Of a stretch of DNA of 20,028 nucleotides, positions 15,001-20,028 are shown piece by piece. Position 1 is the first letter of the stretch; each line of letters begins with the position of its first letter. Where the stretch lies: the IMG/VR virus record IMGVR_UViG_2551306526_000001; one strand, given 5' to 3'. Made by a program: the position numbers. The stretch comes from a virus (Duplodnaviria; Heunggongvirae; Uroviricota; Caudoviricetes).

Positions 15001-18000
15001 TCGGCAGCCAGCAGGTGAGCCGTAATTATCATCTGCGCGGGCGTATTCTGCAGGTGCCGTCGAATTATAACCCGCAGACGCGGCAATACAGCGGTATCTG
15101 GGACGGAACGTTTAAACCGGCATACAGCAACAACATGGCCTGGTGTCTGTGGGATATGCTGACCCATCCGCGCTACGGCATGGGGAAACGTCTTGGTGCG
15201 GCGGATGTGGATAAATGGGCGCTGTATGTTATCGGCCAGTACTGCGACCAGTCAGTGCCGGACGGCTTTGGCGGCACGGAGCCGCGCATCACCTGTAATG
15301 CCTGGCTGACCACACAGCGTAAGGCGTGGGATGTTCTCAGCGATTTCTGCTCGGCGATGCGCTGTATGCCGGTATGGAACGGGCAGACGCTGACGTTCGT
15401 GCAGGACCGACCGTCGGATAAGGTGTGGACCTATAACCGCAGTAATGTGGTGATGCCGGATGATGGCGCGCCGTTCCGCTACAGCTTCAGCGCCCTCAAG
15501 GACCGCCATAATGCCGTTGAGGTGAACTGGATTGACCCGGATAACGGCTGGGAGACGGCGACAGAGCTTGTGGAGGACACGCAGGACATTCTCCGTTACG
15601 GTCGTAACGTCACGAAGATGGATGCCTTTGGCTGTACCAGCCGGGGGCAGGCACACCGCGCCGGGCTGTGGCTGATTAAAACGGAGCTGCTGGAGACGCA
15701 GACCGTGGATTTCAGCGTGGGTGCCGAAGGGCTTCGCCATGTGCCGGGTGATGTTATTGAAATCTGCGATGATGACTATGCGGGGATCAGCATCGGCGGG
15801 CGCGTGCTGGCGGTGAACAGCCAGACCCGGACGCTGACGCTCGACCGTGAAATCACGCTGCCATCCTCCGGTACCACGCTGATAAACCATACTCATAGTG
15901 TCACAGGCGCATCAGCAGTCAGCCAGTGGTCACAAAATGGGTCAGTACATAAGGTAGTGTCTGCGGCCAGTGTGAATACAAGTGCTGCAGGAGCGCACAC
16001 TCATAGTGTCAGCGGCACAGCTGCATCTGCAGGTGCTCACGCACATACTGTCGGTATTGGTGCTCATACGCACTCTGTTGCGATTGGCTCACATGGACAC
16101 ACCATCACCGTTAACGCTGCTGGTAACGCGGAAAACACCGTCAAAAACATCGCATTTAACTACATTGTGAGGCTTGCATAATGGCATTCAGAATGAGTGA
16201 ACAACCACGGACCATAAAAATTTATAATCTGCTGGCCGGAACTAATGAATTTATTGGTGAAGGTGACGCATATATTCCGCCTCATACAGGTCTGCCAGCA
16301 AACAGTACCGATATTGAACCGCCAGATATTCCGGCTGGCTTTGTGGCTGTTTTCAACAGTGATGAGGCATCGTGGCATCTCGTTGAAGACCATCGGGGTA
16401 AAACCGTCTATGACGTGGCTTCCGGCGACGCGTTATTTATTTCTGAACTCGGCTCATTACCGGAAAATGTCACCTGGTTATCCCCGGAAGGGGAGTTTCA
16501 GAAGTGGAACGGCACAACCTGGGTGAAAGATGCAGAAGCAGAAAAACTGTTCCGGATCCGGGAGGCGGAAGAAACAAAAAATAGCCTGATGCAGGTAGCC
16601 AGTGAGCATATTGCGCCACTTCAGGATGCTGCAGATCTGGAAATCGCAACGGAGGGAGAAACCTCGTTGCTGGAAGCCTGGAAAAAGTATCGGGTGTTGC
16701 TGAACCGTGTTGATACATCAACTGCACCTGATATTGAGTGGCCTGCTGTCCCTGTTATGGAGTAATCGTTTTGAGATACGCCGCATACACGTTGTATGCA
16801 ATAACGTGCTGCGGCTTGGTAAATTTTAGCTAGTTTCAGCAGGAGACATAAAAAACTTCAATATAAGATTAAGCATCACGTATTGCCAATCTGATTTTTG
16901 ACTGATACCAATTGGGGCCTTCTGCAATTATTTCTTCCTCAACATGCATGATGGGATGCATTTCAATTTCAGAGTTTTTGACTTTCAGATCTAGTCCATG
17001 TTTTTTTGAAATTTGTAAAACTTCATTTTTGAAATCCTTATCTGCGAAAGGTGAAATCCTTATTTCTTCCAACAGATTATTAAGAGATACAGGGACTAGT
17101 TTTCCCTTTACAGGTGGAGTGTTAAAGGTATTCTCTTGAAAAATAGCTCTAAACTCTTTTTCGTATTCGAAAGATGGTCTCTTGTTAAAGAATACATCTG
17201 ATTCTGGATTGTATTGTTTTATCCAGAAATTTTTGACGTATTTTACGTGTTTTAATTGTAGTTTGTTTAGATTATTATTTTCAAGTTGGCTTTGGAGTTT
17301 TTTTTTCTTTGATTTTATGACAACGCCTTTAGCGGGGTTTTTACAATACAGCTTCCACATAGCTTCAGATTCATGTTCGTTACAATGCCAGCAACTTATA
17401 TATGTCCTCTCGCTTATTTCCTTAAGTGTCTTTAAATTGAATGCCATGAAAGGATCTAAGTCCATGCCGGCACCATAAGTAGCGCATAGTTTTTCCTGTG
17501 TCTCAATGAATTTTTTATAGCCAGTATGTCCCCAAGCAAATTCACCTTCGAACGGATCTTCAAAATTTTTTGCTGAGCAAAAAAATAAAGCATTTTGTTC
17601 GAGTAACATAGAGAATTTCTCTATGTCAAGGTATCGCCATATATACTCAGTGTGCATGATAGCTCCTTGCAATATAACTATTTCTATCTGTTCATTTGTA
17701 CTTAAAAAGGATTGAGTAGCCTGAACAGTTCTATCCGTAAATATACCAGATAGAAGAGTTGTACAATAACAAATCCTCCGTACAAGAACCAGCCATAATA
17801 GTCTGGTTCTTAAGGTTTTTTTTGTTCTAGGGGGGTTTAACCTACGATTCGTCCCCATATCGGCGATAAATCAGGCCTGTACCAACGCTTCTGTTTCTGT
17901 GAGTGAAATCTGATAGCGTTTTACTGCCTCAGCAAAGGCGTGCGCGGCATCTGCATTTGATACCATATATTCTTCAGTTACCCCTGTTTGAGAATGGAAA

Positions 18001-20028
18001 GTAATATTTCCATAAATGCAAATAGGGATTTGGTAGTTATCTTTAAAACGACGGTCTGGTGAGCCATTCTTATTCGTTTTCGCCCATGTATAACCATCTA
18101 TGCGTGAGTCACTGGGAACACCTTCTTCCTCATGGAATCTTAGATATTCTGAACTAATTTGTAATTCGCGTAAATCAATCAGAGCGAATGCTCCATCAGC
18201 TCGTGGTATGACTGCAACTCCAGGATAAAGCAAAATATCGTCTCCATTCACATTTTCAAACCTCATCGCACGCCCTGTAAATTGAATGAGATCCGTTGAA
18301 CTAAAATCAAAGGTAACTGGGTGACGATTAACAGACCGGGTTGCTAATGTTCTTTCAGCAAACTGGTCTGTAGCTTTATCTGCAGTAATATCCCATTTTT
18401 TGACACTCGATTTTAACATATCAAATGCATGGACCATCGCTGCATATGCGCGCTGTGAAGCATCACTGCTCTCGAATGTTATGGCTATTTTTGTGCTGTC
18501 TTCCCATGAAACTAGGCGAGATATCTCAGCTTGGGTTAGGGGGAGTAGTGTCTCAAGTTCTGCGATGCGTCGTTTGTAAAACCAACGGAATAGACTTGAT
18601 TTGCGTCGAGCCAGCTCGCTTTTTTGTTTTGATTCTTCGGCAAGAGCCTCTTGAAGATCTGCTTTTATTTCTGCTCTTTGTTCTCGTGCTTTAGCAATCA
18701 AATCTCGTAAAGGTAAAAGGGAGGTACTTGTAAGGACTTCTACCGAAGCGCTGGATATTTCATTCATGCCAGCTACAGGCATATATATTTTAGCGTTCGA
18801 TGGTGTATTTTCTGGAGATGACCCAGACCCCAAATGAGGTTCTGTAGGGGCTGGATTTAATGGATTGGTAACTGAGTATCCATCATCATAGGGCAAGGTA
18901 GGTGTAGTATAAGATAAGCCTGTGCCCGGTAATCCGACAGTTGCTCTAACCCCTTTTTTACCAACATTGACAGTTGCGCCAGGCACGCCAATGCTTGCAC
19001 TTATTCCACGCTTGCCAATGTTGAGTCGAACGCCAGGAAATAGAGTAAAGGTTTGTCTGAAACGAAGAGACATAAAGTTATCCCTATGTAGTTTTGTACA
19101 CCAAAGTTCGAAATGTTTTTATATGAATATTGAGCTGATTCGTAAGATTATTCCTAGCTCATCTTCATTCCGCCATGATACAACGGTTTGCTTGCAGGTG
19201 AAGAAAAACGAAAAAGCCCAATCATGATTGGTGGGCTGGTGGAGTTGAAACCGCAGACACGTCATATGTAAGAACGTGTTGCGGCTGGCTGGTGAGCTTT
19301 CGATAGGGCGAGTATTGAATGATCTCCAGCCGTTATCGATTTTACGTATTTTTGTATGAGAGGATTTTTACCTCCTCCCACCGATCCTACATGACTTTAC
19401 GACACTGTCTCTAGGACTGCTATGTGCCAGAAGCGGACTTTAAGAACACTAAGGTAGGATTGTCTACCGGGGGGAGGGAGTCAATCCATAGCGCATTACG
19501 ATTGACTCTGATAACTCGTATTACTTGATTCAAAAAATGAAGGAGGGCTATACCACATCGTGGTAATAATTAGACTGGCCCCCTGAATCTCCAGACAACC
19601 AGTATCACTTAAATAAGTGATAGTCTTAATACTAGTTTTTAGACTAGTCATTGGAGAACAGATGATTGATGTCTTAGGGCCGGAGAAACGCAGACGGCGT
19701 ACCACACAGGAAAAGATCGCAATTTGTTCAGCAGAGCTTTGAACCGGGGATGACGGTCTCCCTCGTTGCCCGGCAACATGGTGTAGCAGCCAGCCAGTTA
19801 TTTCTCTGGCGTAAGCAATACCAGGAAGGAAGTCTTACTGCTGTCGCCGCCGGAGAACAGGTTGTTCCTGCCTCTGAACTTGCTGCCGCCATGAAGCAGA
19901 TTAAAGAACTCCAGCGCCTGCTCGGCAAGAAAACGATGGAAAATGAACTCCTCAAAGAAGCCGTTGAATATGGACGGGCAAAAAAGTGGATAGCGCACGC
20001 GCCCTTATTGCCCGGGGATGGGGAGTAA

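What the first reader, a model, noticed from the sequence alone, without database searches (positions are those of the whole stretch)
16869..19073. AT-rich two-gene cassette (DUF4236-like + DUF2971-like) in the tail-fibre-proximal hotspot: candidate uncharacterised anti-phage system
Two minus-strand genes (17871-19073, 400 aa; 16869-17657, 262 aa) lie between tfa and an IS2 end, convergent with the phage late operon. They are conspicuously AT-rich relative to the flanking phage genes, which suggests separate horizontal acquisition. The upstream protein has an N-terminal DUF4236-like domain, a predicted coiled coil, and a ~200 aa C-terminal domain I cannot assign. The downstream protein carries a DUF2971-like signature (IWRYLD…FEDPFEGEF). 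Neither is a phage structural or lysis function, and the region after tail fibre genes is a known hotspot for prophage-encoded defence cargo. No strong terminator separates the two genes on the minus strand, so they may be co-transcribed.
Basis: partly seen in the sequence, partly recalled or inferred. Interest (0 to 1): 0.85.

Follow-up and report, generated by a model that had tools for sequence, protein, structure and literature searches.

The report
Two unrelated prophage cargo genes
The two AT-rich genes after the tail-fibre genes are real and sit in a proven anti-phage hotspot, but they are two independent single-gene cargo modules, one a DarT-like ADP-ribosyltransferase already listed as a defence candidate and one a conserved protein of unknown function, not a two-gene system.

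Summary
Gene A (17871-19073, minus strand, 400 aa) has an N-terminal DUF4236 domain. Gene B (16869-17657, minus strand, 262 aa) is a DUF2971 protein. Both are AT-rich (43% and 34% GC, against 56% in the tail genes) and lie between tfa and an IS2.

The "two-gene system" reading fails:
- Outside one >98%-identical E. coli cassette (122 of 5426 genomes), A never has a DUF2971 neighbour and B never has a DUF4236 neighbour. I checked about 22 genome loci and 62 viral contigs.
- A decayed tRNA-Pro attachment-site fragment and its terminator hairpin lie between the genes.
- Natural knock-outs of either gene leave the other intact.

A has a DUF4236 domain, a coiled coil and a weakly PH-like C-terminal domain. 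It carries its own conserved promoter region and is 66-93% identical across gamma- and alphaproteobacteria. Its function is unknown.

The hotspot idea holds. In another E. coli prophage the same slot carries PD-T4-3/CMoRE, and PDC-S71 and Lamassu lie close to the cassette or to A homologues.

Interest is moderate and rests mainly on A.

The parts
16181..16765 (+). tfa, tail fibre assembly gene. Last gene of the late operon and left border of the cargo slot.
   Evidence: Pfam Caudo_TAP, E 1.2e-43. 95% identical to the lambda tfa 3' end.
16781..16816 (.). Hairpin repeat copy 1, left boundary of the 2.47-kb cassette. It is placed to end both tfa and gene B transcripts.
   Evidence: Direct repeat D1, 83% identical to 19251-19286. 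Folds at -19 kcal/mol on the minus strand and -21.5 on the plus strand.
16869..17657 (-). Gene B: 262-aa DUF2971 protein with a DarT-like ADP-ribosyltransferase fold. PADLOC candidate family PDC-S31.
17298..17306 (-). A9 homopolymer inside gene B. This is the site of the 1-nt deletion that frameshifts B in other carriers.
   Evidence: Alignment with FORC_042. About 11 of 40 sampled carriers have a 787-788 nt copy or no DUF2971 annotation.
17658..17760 (-). Upstream region of B, with ribosome-binding site and probable promoter. It travels with B.
   Evidence: Conserved with the Enterobacter soli homologue's upstream region, which lies in a P2-like prophage.
17784..17811 (-). Hairpin derived from the proL (tRNA-Pro) terminator, lying between A and B. 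The U-tract is lost here.
   Evidence: Alignment with the proL terminator and with the Klebsiella copy. Folds at -15.2 kcal/mol, z -3.5. The Klebsiella copy folds at -19 kcal/mol and is followed by U7.
17823..17858 (-). Decayed 3' half of tRNA-Pro(GGG), a fossil attachment-site core directly after the stop codon of A.
   Evidence: Alignment with the intact proL of FORC_042 and with the perfect copy in Klebsiella. A perfect or near-perfect copy lies 28 nt after the A stop codon in Klebsiella and Enterobacter genomes and in about 25 viral contigs. ARAGORN calls no tRNA in the window.
17871..19073 (-). Gene A: 400-aa protein with DUF4236 (residues 3-56), a variable linker, a helical hairpin (117-193) and a conserved beta-rich C-terminal domain (about 195-400).
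   Evidence: Pfam PF14020, E 3e-21. phrog_17982, E 3e-194. Homologues of 400 aa at 65-93% identity. AF2 model. The C-terminal-domain family has 2902 representative clusters.
19074..19205 (-). Upstream region of A, with probable promoter and 5' UTR. It travels with A.
   Evidence: About 130 nt are conserved with Klebsiella, Serratia, Pectobacterium and Citrobacter loci despite different surroundings. Contains a promoter-like site at 19202-19175.
19199..19237 (-). Terminator-like hairpin plus U-rich tract upstream of A's promoter region. It would shield A from transcription coming from upstream.
   Evidence: Folds at -8.1 kcal/mol and is followed by UUUUUCGUUUUU. In Klebsiella the ssrA terminator occupies the same position.
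19251..19286 (.). Hairpin repeat copy 2, right boundary of the cassette.
   Evidence: Repeat D1. Folds at -18.8 kcal/mol.
19247..19446 (.). Conserved roughly 190-bp prophage-end segment that starts with hairpin 2. It forms the shared right flank of the cargo slot in many E. coli prophages.
   Evidence: 87-91% identical in about 300 other E. coli genomes next to different cargo.
19750..20028 (+). IS2-type transposase ORF at the window edge.
   Evidence: Pfam HTH_Tnp_1, E 1.6e-11. APEC E19057 has the identical cassette without this IS.

Best explanation
The locus is two self-contained single-gene cargo modules ('morons') that were brought side by side at the tail-fibre end of an E. coli lambdoid prophage. 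That position is a slot where defence genes are exchanged between conserved flanks.

Gene B is a cytoplasmic DarT-like ADP-ribosyltransferase of the DUF2971/PDC-S31 family. It has no partner antitoxin. It most likely acts alone as an abortive-infection toxin. I infer that it is held inactive until infection, possibly by its own C-terminal region (about residues 185-262). I also infer that it then uses NAD+ to ADP-ribosylate nucleic acid or another essential target, which stops phage replication.

Gene A is an unrelated, strongly conserved, non-enzymatic-looking protein: a DUF4236 beta-hairpin module, a linker, a coiled coil and a PH-like domain. It has its own promoter region and its own terminator. 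It travels alone among prophage ends, tRNA/tmRNA-linked islands and chromosomal sites. Long relatives are membrane-anchored with peptidoglycan-binding domains on the far side of the anchor, so A probably works at the inner face of the cell envelope.

Shown: the domain assignments, the folds, the independence of the two genes, the module boundaries and the hotspot. Inferred: the defence role and mechanism of B, and any role for A.
For: Independence of the two genes:
- In E. coli both genes occur in the same 122 of 5426 genomes as one block that is >98% identical, so this is a single lineage.
- A homologues (51-93% identical) in Klebsiella, Enterobacter, Serratia, Edwardsiella, Pectobacterium, Citrobacter and about 12 alphaproteobacterial loci have no DUF2971 ORF within 6-10 kb, even at HMM E<=50.
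- In IMG/VR, 29 of 33 A loci lack B and 33 of 37 B loci lack A. The only exceptions are the four contigs with the E. coli-type (100%-identical) A gene.
- B homologues sit alone after ogr of a P2-like prophage (Enterobacter soli), next to a P2-like portal gene (a Pseudomonas isolate) and in a prophage early region (P. nitroreducens).
- A tRNA-Pro attachment-core fragment and the proL terminator lie between A and B. In Klebsiella indica an integrase-Lamassu island begins right after that fragment.
- Each gene keeps its own conserved upstream region in foreign contexts.
- In E. coli L725, A is split by an IS3-family element while B is intact. In FORC_042 and about a quarter of sampled carriers, B is frameshifted while A is intact.

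Gene B:
- DUF2971 and PDC-S31, E 9e-21.
- Invariant E166-x-E168, matching the ExE motif described for DUF2971 (PMC12522546).
- Aristaios, a DUF2971 protein, is a validated single-gene abortive-infection system (PMC11381338).
- PDC families were defined by being embedded in BREX, DISARM or type I restriction-modification systems (bioRxiv 10.1101/2024.01.29.577857).

Hotspot: the same slot holds PD-T4-3 in strain 90-1, and PDC-S71 lies next to the same cassette in APEC E19057. PD-T4-3 is the validated CMoRE nuclease (PMC12923530).

Gene A:
- No transmembrane segment.
- Long relatives have the layout DUF4236, coiled coil, C-terminal domain, one hydrophobic segment, then SH3, PG_binding or PDZ.
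- GC3 (third-codon-position GC) has drifted toward the host value in alphaproteobacteria while identity stays at 66-70%, which indicates strong purifying selection.
Against: - No experiment exists here or in the searchable literature for this B subfamily or for A.
- PDC-S31 is an untested candidate.
- B's link to DarT is by fold only. A profile search of PDB sequences finds nothing at E<=10. Its target is unknown.
- DUF2971 proteins have also been proposed as secreted effectors (PMC12522546).
- The E. coli hairpin between A and B has lost its U-tract, so read-through from A into B is possible.
- In E. coli the two genes are never found apart, although that reflects a single recent lineage.
- A's fold assignment is weak. 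The best Foldseek hit has E 0.023, and the N-terminal 119 residues are modelled at pLDDT below 50.
- A's neighbours in Serratia and in alphaproteobacteria are housekeeping genes, not defence genes.
Confidence: 0.62

Rival explanations
1. A and B form a lineage-specific two-gene system. For example, A might be an antitoxin, sensor or scaffold that controls the B ADP-ribosyltransferase, in the way DarG controls DarT.
For: The genes are adjacent, on the same strand, and always together in 122 E. coli genomes. There is no canonical terminator between them in this window. Loss of B with A retained is what a toxin-antitoxin pair would tolerate.
Against: There is no co-occurrence in any diverged lineage: 0 of about 22 genome loci and 0 of 62 non-E. 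coli viral loci. An attachment-site fossil and a terminator hairpin lie in the 213-nt gap. In strain L725, A is disrupted by an IS element while B stays intact. A has no macrodomain or any hydrolase-like domain. B homologues live alone in prophages.
Confidence: 0.07
2. Gene B is not an anti-phage gene. It is instead a toxin or effector used for another purpose, such as host-cell or competitor intoxication or prophage addiction, or it is a decaying passenger.
For: The Legionella survey predicts about 18% of DUF2971 proteins to be effectors (PMC12522546). B is frameshifted at an A9 tract in about a quarter of sampled carriers. PDC-S31 is untested.
Against: B has no signal peptide or hydrophobic segment. 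It sits in prophage accessory slots that carry validated defence genes. A family member, Aristaios, is a validated abortive-infection gene (PMC11381338). Catalytic residues are invariant across homologues down to 24% identity.
Confidence: 0.2
3. Gene A is a phage or integrative-element function, not host-benefit cargo. For example, it could be a factor tied to the adjacent attachment site, or an envelope-directed protein that helps lysogeny or superinfection exclusion.
For: In the clade that is at least 90% identical, A always ends 28 nt before a tRNA-Pro attachment core. It lies next to ssrA in four genera. It is often the last gene of predicted prophages. Relatives are envelope-anchored.
Against: More distant homologues (Serratia, Pectobacterium, Citrobacter, alphaproteobacteria) have no such fragment and are not in prophages. 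A shows no resemblance to a recombinase or a DNA-binding fold. It is absent from sequenced enterobacterial phages.
Confidence: 0.15

Closest known systems
Aristaios (Lactococcus plasmid pUCCL641, 316 aa, single-gene abortive-infection system; PMC11381338)
   Same: Both are single proteins with a DUF2971 domain and a predicted ADP-ribosyltransferase fold, carried on a mobile element without a partner gene.
   Different: It comes from a different phylum and differs in length (316 against 262 aa). The closest plasmid relatives of B are in Bacillus, haloarchaea and Alteromonas, not Lactococcus. No phenotype is known for B.
PADLOC PDC-S31 (untested single-gene phage defence candidate; bioRxiv 10.1101/2024.01.29.577857)
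   Same: B matches four PDC-S31 models, the best at E 9.2e-21 over profile positions 67-235 of 245. It is a solitary gene.
   Different: PDC families were defined by being embedded in BREX, DISARM or type I restriction-modification loci. Here the gene is prophage cargo after tail-fibre genes. The family has no experimental support.
DarT of DarTG toxin-antitoxin systems (ssDNA ADP-ribosyltransferase)
   Different: Identity is only 8-14%, with no sequence-level match. There is no DarG macrodomain partner. B has large helical inserts and an extra C-terminal region. Its target is unknown.
PD-T4-3 / CMoRE (GIY-YIG type IV restriction enzyme; PMC12923530)
   Same: It occupies the same prophage slot, between the tail-fibre/pin genes and the conserved hairpin segment, in E. 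coli strain 90-1. It is also single-gene cargo on the minus strand.
   Different: The protein is unrelated. The link is positional only.
Long DUF4236 proteins with a transmembrane segment and SH3, PG_binding_1 or PDZ domains (uncharacterised)
   Same: They share the same N-terminal DUF4236, coiled coil and C-terminal domain as A, at 40-48% identity over the C-terminal domain.
   Different: They carry one hydrophobic segment and domains of the peptidoglycan-binding type after the shared domain. A ends right after the shared domain and has no hydrophobic segment.

Membership tests
Pfam DUF2971 (PF11185), gene B | Match to the family model above its gathering score | tested here: met
   E 3.8e-7, 31.8 bits against a cut-off of 22, residues 100-170.
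PADLOC PDC-S31, gene B | Match to the PDC-S31 protein models | tested here: met
   PDLC04993 at E 9.2e-21. Three further PDC-S31 models at E 1.7e-11 to 6.8e-8.
PADLOC PDC-S31, gene B | Works as a single gene (the 'S' class) | tested here: met
   Homologues are solitary in three unrelated prophage contexts and in 33 viral contigs.
PADLOC PDC-S31, gene B | Protects against phage | not testable with these tools
   All 145 PDC systems are described as untested (bioRxiv 10.1101/2024.01.29.577857).
ADP-ribosyltransferase superfamily, gene B | ADP-ribosyltransferase core fold | tested here: met
ADP-ribosyltransferase superfamily, gene B | Catalytic motif III (ExE) conserved | tested here: met
   E166 and E168 are invariant in 48 sequences down to 24% identity. 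Y140 is also invariant. This agrees with the motif described in PMC12522546.
DarTG toxin-antitoxin system | Adjacent DarG macrodomain antitoxin | tested here: not met
   A has only DUF4236 in Pfam. There are no PADLOC hits and no macrodomain-like fold. B homologues elsewhere have no macrodomain neighbour on record.
DarTG toxin-antitoxin system | Sequence membership in the DarT family | tested here: not met
Aristaios | Sequence similarity to the Aristaios protein beyond the shared Pfam domain | not tested
No Lactococcus hit appeared among the 40 listed of 42 plasmid matches.
Pfam DUF4236 (PF14020), gene A | Match to the family model above its gathering score | tested here: met
   E 3e-21, 76.1 bits against a cut-off of 27, residues 3-56 covering the whole 55-position model.
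Two-gene defence system or toxin-antitoxin pair (A plus B) | The gene pair is conserved across diverged lineages | tested here: not met
   The pair is seen only in the >98%-identical E. coli cassette. 0 of about 22 genome loci and 0 of 62 other viral loci carry both.
Two-gene defence system or toxin-antitoxin pair (A plus B) | Operon organisation (short gap, shared promoter) | tested here: inconclusive
   The gap is 213 nt and holds a tRNA-Pro fossil and a -15.2 kcal/mol hairpin without a U-tract. B has its own conserved upstream region. There are no transcript data.
Two-gene defence system or toxin-antitoxin pair (A plus B) | Mutual dependence: neither gene survives alone | tested here: not met
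   L725 has A disrupted by an IS element with B intact. FORC_042 and others have B frameshifted with A intact.
Prophage moron / defence-hotspot cargo | Variable gene content between conserved flanks, with known defence genes in the same slot | tested here: met
   Hairpin repeats bracket the cassette. The right flank is shared with about 300 other prophages. PD-T4-3 sits in the same slot, with PDC-S64 and PDC-S71 adjacent.

The most novel reading that the evidence does not exclude
Gene A defines a new kind of single-protein phage-exclusion or defence factor with no recognisable enzyme domain. It would consist of a DUF4236 beta-hairpin oligomerisation module, a coiled coil and a PH-like domain, and act at the inner face of the envelope. 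It spreads as a 1.5-kb self-contained module that is often tied to tRNA/tmRNA attachment sites. Its family has about 2900 clusters at 50% identity, including membrane-anchored peptidoglycan-binding relatives. That size would make it a large, so far unrecognised class.
Probability: 0.22. Interest if true: 0.65.

Novelty: new member of a known kind. Interest (0 to 1): 0.38.

Why it matters
The result corrects a plausible but wrong "new two-gene system" call, so it saves a cloning effort aimed at the pair.

It also gives two cleaner targets:
- B would be the first enterobacterial DUF2971/PDC-S31 protein to test. It is a partner-less DarT-like ADP-ribosyltransferase, which raises the question of how such a toxin is kept silent without an antitoxin.
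- A is a very strongly conserved and widely transferred protein of unknown function that sits in validated defence slots.

The attachment-site fossil between the genes and the hairpin-bounded slot also show concretely how prophage ends collect unrelated defence cargo.

Tried and rejected
- The afdb50 library was not available.
- Profile searches of PDB sequences gave nothing for A (one hit at E 1) and nothing for B.
- NCBIfam had no model for either protein.
- Literature searches for DUF4236, PF14020, PDC-S31, the protein accessions and the InterPro ids found no functional study of A. No supplements are held for the DefensePredictor preprint.
- Sequenced phages hold almost no close relatives. 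A appears only in two Microcystis phages at 32% identity. B appears in one Acinetobacter phage at 26%.
- The contig look-up for the Herbaspirillum B homologue found nothing on record.
- I considered the 329-aa upstream start of B and rejected it. The extension is not conserved and it overlaps the tRNA fragment.
- I considered that the 36-nt flanking repeat might be a target-site duplication and rejected it. It is only 83% identical, it forms a hairpin, and copy 2 continues into a segment shared by prophages with other cargo.
- I could not settle the exact order of events that put A, the fossil and B together.

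
Full report
**1. The observation**

Gene A (17871-19073, 400 aa) carries a full-length Pfam DUF4236 match at residues 3-56 (E 3e-21).

Gene B's ORF extends to 17858, but the start at 17657 is the real one. It follows AAGGAG, and all homologues begin there. 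B matches Pfam DUF2971 (E 3.8e-7, above the gathering score).

GC content is 43.1% for A and 34.2% for B, against 56.2% for the tail genes and 49% for the whole window. tfa (16181-16765) and an IS-type transposase ORF (19750-20028) flank the pair.

The window is a deleted lambdoid prophage. It holds a cI-like repressor, a cII-like gene, replication genes, DUF968, a methylase, a lysozyme, a truncated terminase and a fused T/J/Stf ORF. Intact relatives are about 35 kb over the same stretch.

**2. Distribution in E. coli**

A and B occur in the same 122 of 5426 complete genomes, always as one block. A is at least 99% identical and B 98-100%. This is a single young lineage, so it says nothing about functional linkage.

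The cassette sits after tfa in full-length prophages, for example FORC_042 at tRNA-Pro/yejM. It also sits in a degraded prophage at thrW in APEC E19057, which is 100% identical to the window over 16700-19520 but lacks the IS2.

**3. Test of the gene pair outside E. coli**

A has 400-aa homologues at these identities:

| Host | Identity to A |
|---|---|
| Klebsiella | 93% |
| Serratia | 87% |
| Edwardsiella | 79% |
| Rhodobacteraceae and other alphaproteobacteria | 65-70% |

Their contexts differ widely:
- the end of a Klebsiella prophage next to ssrA;
- the Q-holin gap of an Edwardsiella lambdoid prophage;
- between lptG and a beta-lactamase gene in Serratia;
- among housekeeping genes in Paracoccus and Phaeobacter.

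B has homologues at 81% identity after ogr of a P2-like prophage in Enterobacter soli. It has homologues at 51-54% in Pseudomonas prophage regions.

I built HMMs of both families and searched the six-frame ORFs of every fetched locus. None of about 22 non-E. coli genome loci with A has a DUF2971-like ORF, even at E<=50. That relaxed threshold does recover a divergent paralogue in the P. nitroreducens locus.

In IMG/VR, 29 of 33 A loci lack B and 33 of 37 B loci lack A. The four exceptions are the contigs carrying the E. coli-type (100%-identical) A gene.

The pair is therefore not conserved.

**4. Module boundaries**

Twenty-eight nucleotides after A's stop codon, Klebsiella and Enterobacter genomes and about 25 viral contigs carry a perfect 3' half of tRNA-Pro(GGG). 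It is followed by the proL terminator hairpin. The window has a decayed copy at about 17823-17858 plus the hairpin at 17784-17811.

This is an attachment-site core. In Klebsiella indica an integrase followed by LmuA/LmuB (Lamassu) starts right after it. A and B thus lie on opposite sides of an old integration junction.

The hairpin still folds (-15.2 kcal/mol) but has lost its U-tract here. Read-through from A into B therefore cannot be excluded.

Each gene keeps its own upstream region in foreign contexts: about 130 nt for A and about 100 nt for B. A terminator-like hairpin plus U-tract lies upstream of A's promoter region.

The whole 2.47-kb cassette is bracketed by a 36-nt hairpin repeat, at 16781-16816 and 19251-19286 (83% identical). 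The right copy continues into a roughly 190-bp segment that about 300 other E. coli prophages carry next to other cargo.

**5. Natural knock-outs**

In strain L725, A is split by an IS3-family element while B reads through intact.

In FORC_042, B has lost one base of the A9 tract at 17298-17306 and is frameshifted, while A is intact. About 11 of 40 evenly sampled carriers show the same 787-788 nt copy or lack a DUF2971 annotation.

Neither gene needs the other.

**6. What B is**

Forty-eight homologues, down to 24% identity, keep E166-x-E168, R170, Y140 and the ESEAMW block. This fits the modified H-Y-ExE site described for DUF2971 in PMC12522546.

PADLOC matches PDC-S31 at E 9e-21. PDC families are untested candidates found embedded in BREX, DISARM or type I restriction-modification loci (bioRxiv 10.1101/2024.01.29.577857). 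Aristaios, a DUF2971 protein on a lactococcal plasmid, is a validated single-gene abortive-infection system (PMC11381338).

B has no hydrophobic segment, no macrodomain partner, and no sequence-level match to DarT. It works like DarT by fold but is not a DarTG member.

The most likely mechanism is infection-triggered, NAD+-dependent ADP-ribosylation by a single protein. That step is inferred.

**7. What A is**

The AlphaFold2 model is poor for residues 1-119, where it shows six short strands at pLDDT below 50. It is good for a helical hairpin (117-193) and for a beta-rich domain ending in a long helix.

PHROGs shows that the N-terminal 56 residues are fused to many different C-terminal regions in phage proteins.

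The C-terminal domain alone finds 2902 representative clusters. Eight of the ten relatives I scanned also start with DUF4236. Six of those continue after the shared domain with one hydrophobic segment and then SH3, PG_binding_1 or PDZ domains. That points to the cell envelope.

A itself has no hydrophobic segment. Third-position GC has drifted toward the host value in alphaproteobacteria (0.49-0.70, against 0.30 in E. coli) while identity stays at 57-70%. The protein is therefore under strong constraint.

Function remains unknown. Neighbours include Lamassu (K. indica) and a PifA-like gene (Pectobacterium). In other hosts they are plain housekeeping genes.

**8. The hotspot**

In strain 90-1 the slot between pinE and the conserved hairpin segment holds PD-T4-3 (E 1e-139), with a PDC-S64-like gene nearby. 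In APEC E19057 the genes beyond A are a DUF6602 PD-(D/E)xK-like protein and PDC-S71 (E 9e-218). PD-T4-3 is the validated CMoRE nuclease (PMC12923530).

It raises the prior that both genes are defence cargo, each on its own.

**9. Verdict**

- B is a new member of a known candidate kind.
- A is an uncharacterised but widespread protein and is the only part with real novelty potential.

Noticed in passing
window 16524-16722 (+): Full-length match to Rfam IS009 (RF02111), 225 bits against a gathering score of 117. It lies inside the 3' part of the tfa coding sequence.
   Followed up: no
window 14229-16181 (+): A single 650-aa ORF joins pieces of tail protein T, the J FNIII-A and Phage-tail_3 domains, and a tail-fibre repeat end. 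With the 405-aa terminase fragment at 12055-13272, this shows large internal deletions. The prophage is defective, and intact relatives span about 35 kb.
   Followed up: partly
window 7242-7688 (-): A second AT-rich minus-strand ORF (148 aa; local GC 38-40%) with no Pfam or PADLOC match, downstream of the DUF968 gene and upstream of the methylase and lysis genes. In an Edwardsiella prophage the gene A homologue occupies the corresponding Q-holin slot (L014:6001-7191).
   Followed up: partly
window 17298-17306 (-): An A9 run inside gene B is the site of the frameshift seen in FORC_042 and probably in about a quarter of carriers. It could be a slippage-prone on/off site, or partly a homopolymer assembly error.
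   Followed up: partly
L003:5347-7300, L023, L024, L025 (Klebsiella, Enterobacter, Pseudenterobacter): In four genera gene A lies between the tmRNA gene ssrA (about 290 nt upstream) and a perfect tRNA-Pro 3' fragment (28 nt downstream). This makes it a 1.5-kb mini-island bounded by two different attachment-type sequences. The content to the right of it varies.
   Followed up: partly
L025:11458-17073 (Klebsiella indica): A tyrosine integrase followed by LmuA- and LmuB-like genes (Lamassu) begins directly after the tRNA-Pro fragment next to gene A. The fragment therefore seems to have served as an integration site for a defence island.
   Followed up: partly
L022:3041-3814 (E. coli strain 90-1): A full-length PD-T4-3/CMoRE gene (E 1e-139) sits in the slot that A and B occupy in the window, followed by a PDC-S64-like gene at L022:5208-6125.
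   Followed up: yes
L001:23002-27356 (E. coli APEC E19057, same cassette without IS2): Beyond gene A lie a DUF6602 protein with a weak PD-(D/E)xK match, a short HNH gene and a 604-aa PDC-S71 protein (E 9e-218), before the LysR remnant and paoD. In the window this stretch lies beyond the IS2 and outside the sequence given.
   Followed up: partly
L024:12243-12692 (Pseudenterobacter timonensis): A second, short ORF with a DUF4236-like N-terminus (HMM E 4e-8) lies 1 kb from the gene A homologue, beyond an IS3-family transposase and next to a mad2-like methyltransferase.
   Followed up: no
window 19617-20028 (+): The start of the IS2 transposase reads as two ORFs in different frames (19617-19742 and 19750-20028). 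I did not check whether this is a real frameshift in this copy.
   Followed up: no
L026:13735-15981 (Pectobacterium zantedeschiae): A PifA-like KAP NTPase (PADLOC PifA, E 1e-70) lies 2.5 kb from the gene A homologue. Two ORFs of 257 and 416 aa with no family match separate them.
   Followed up: no
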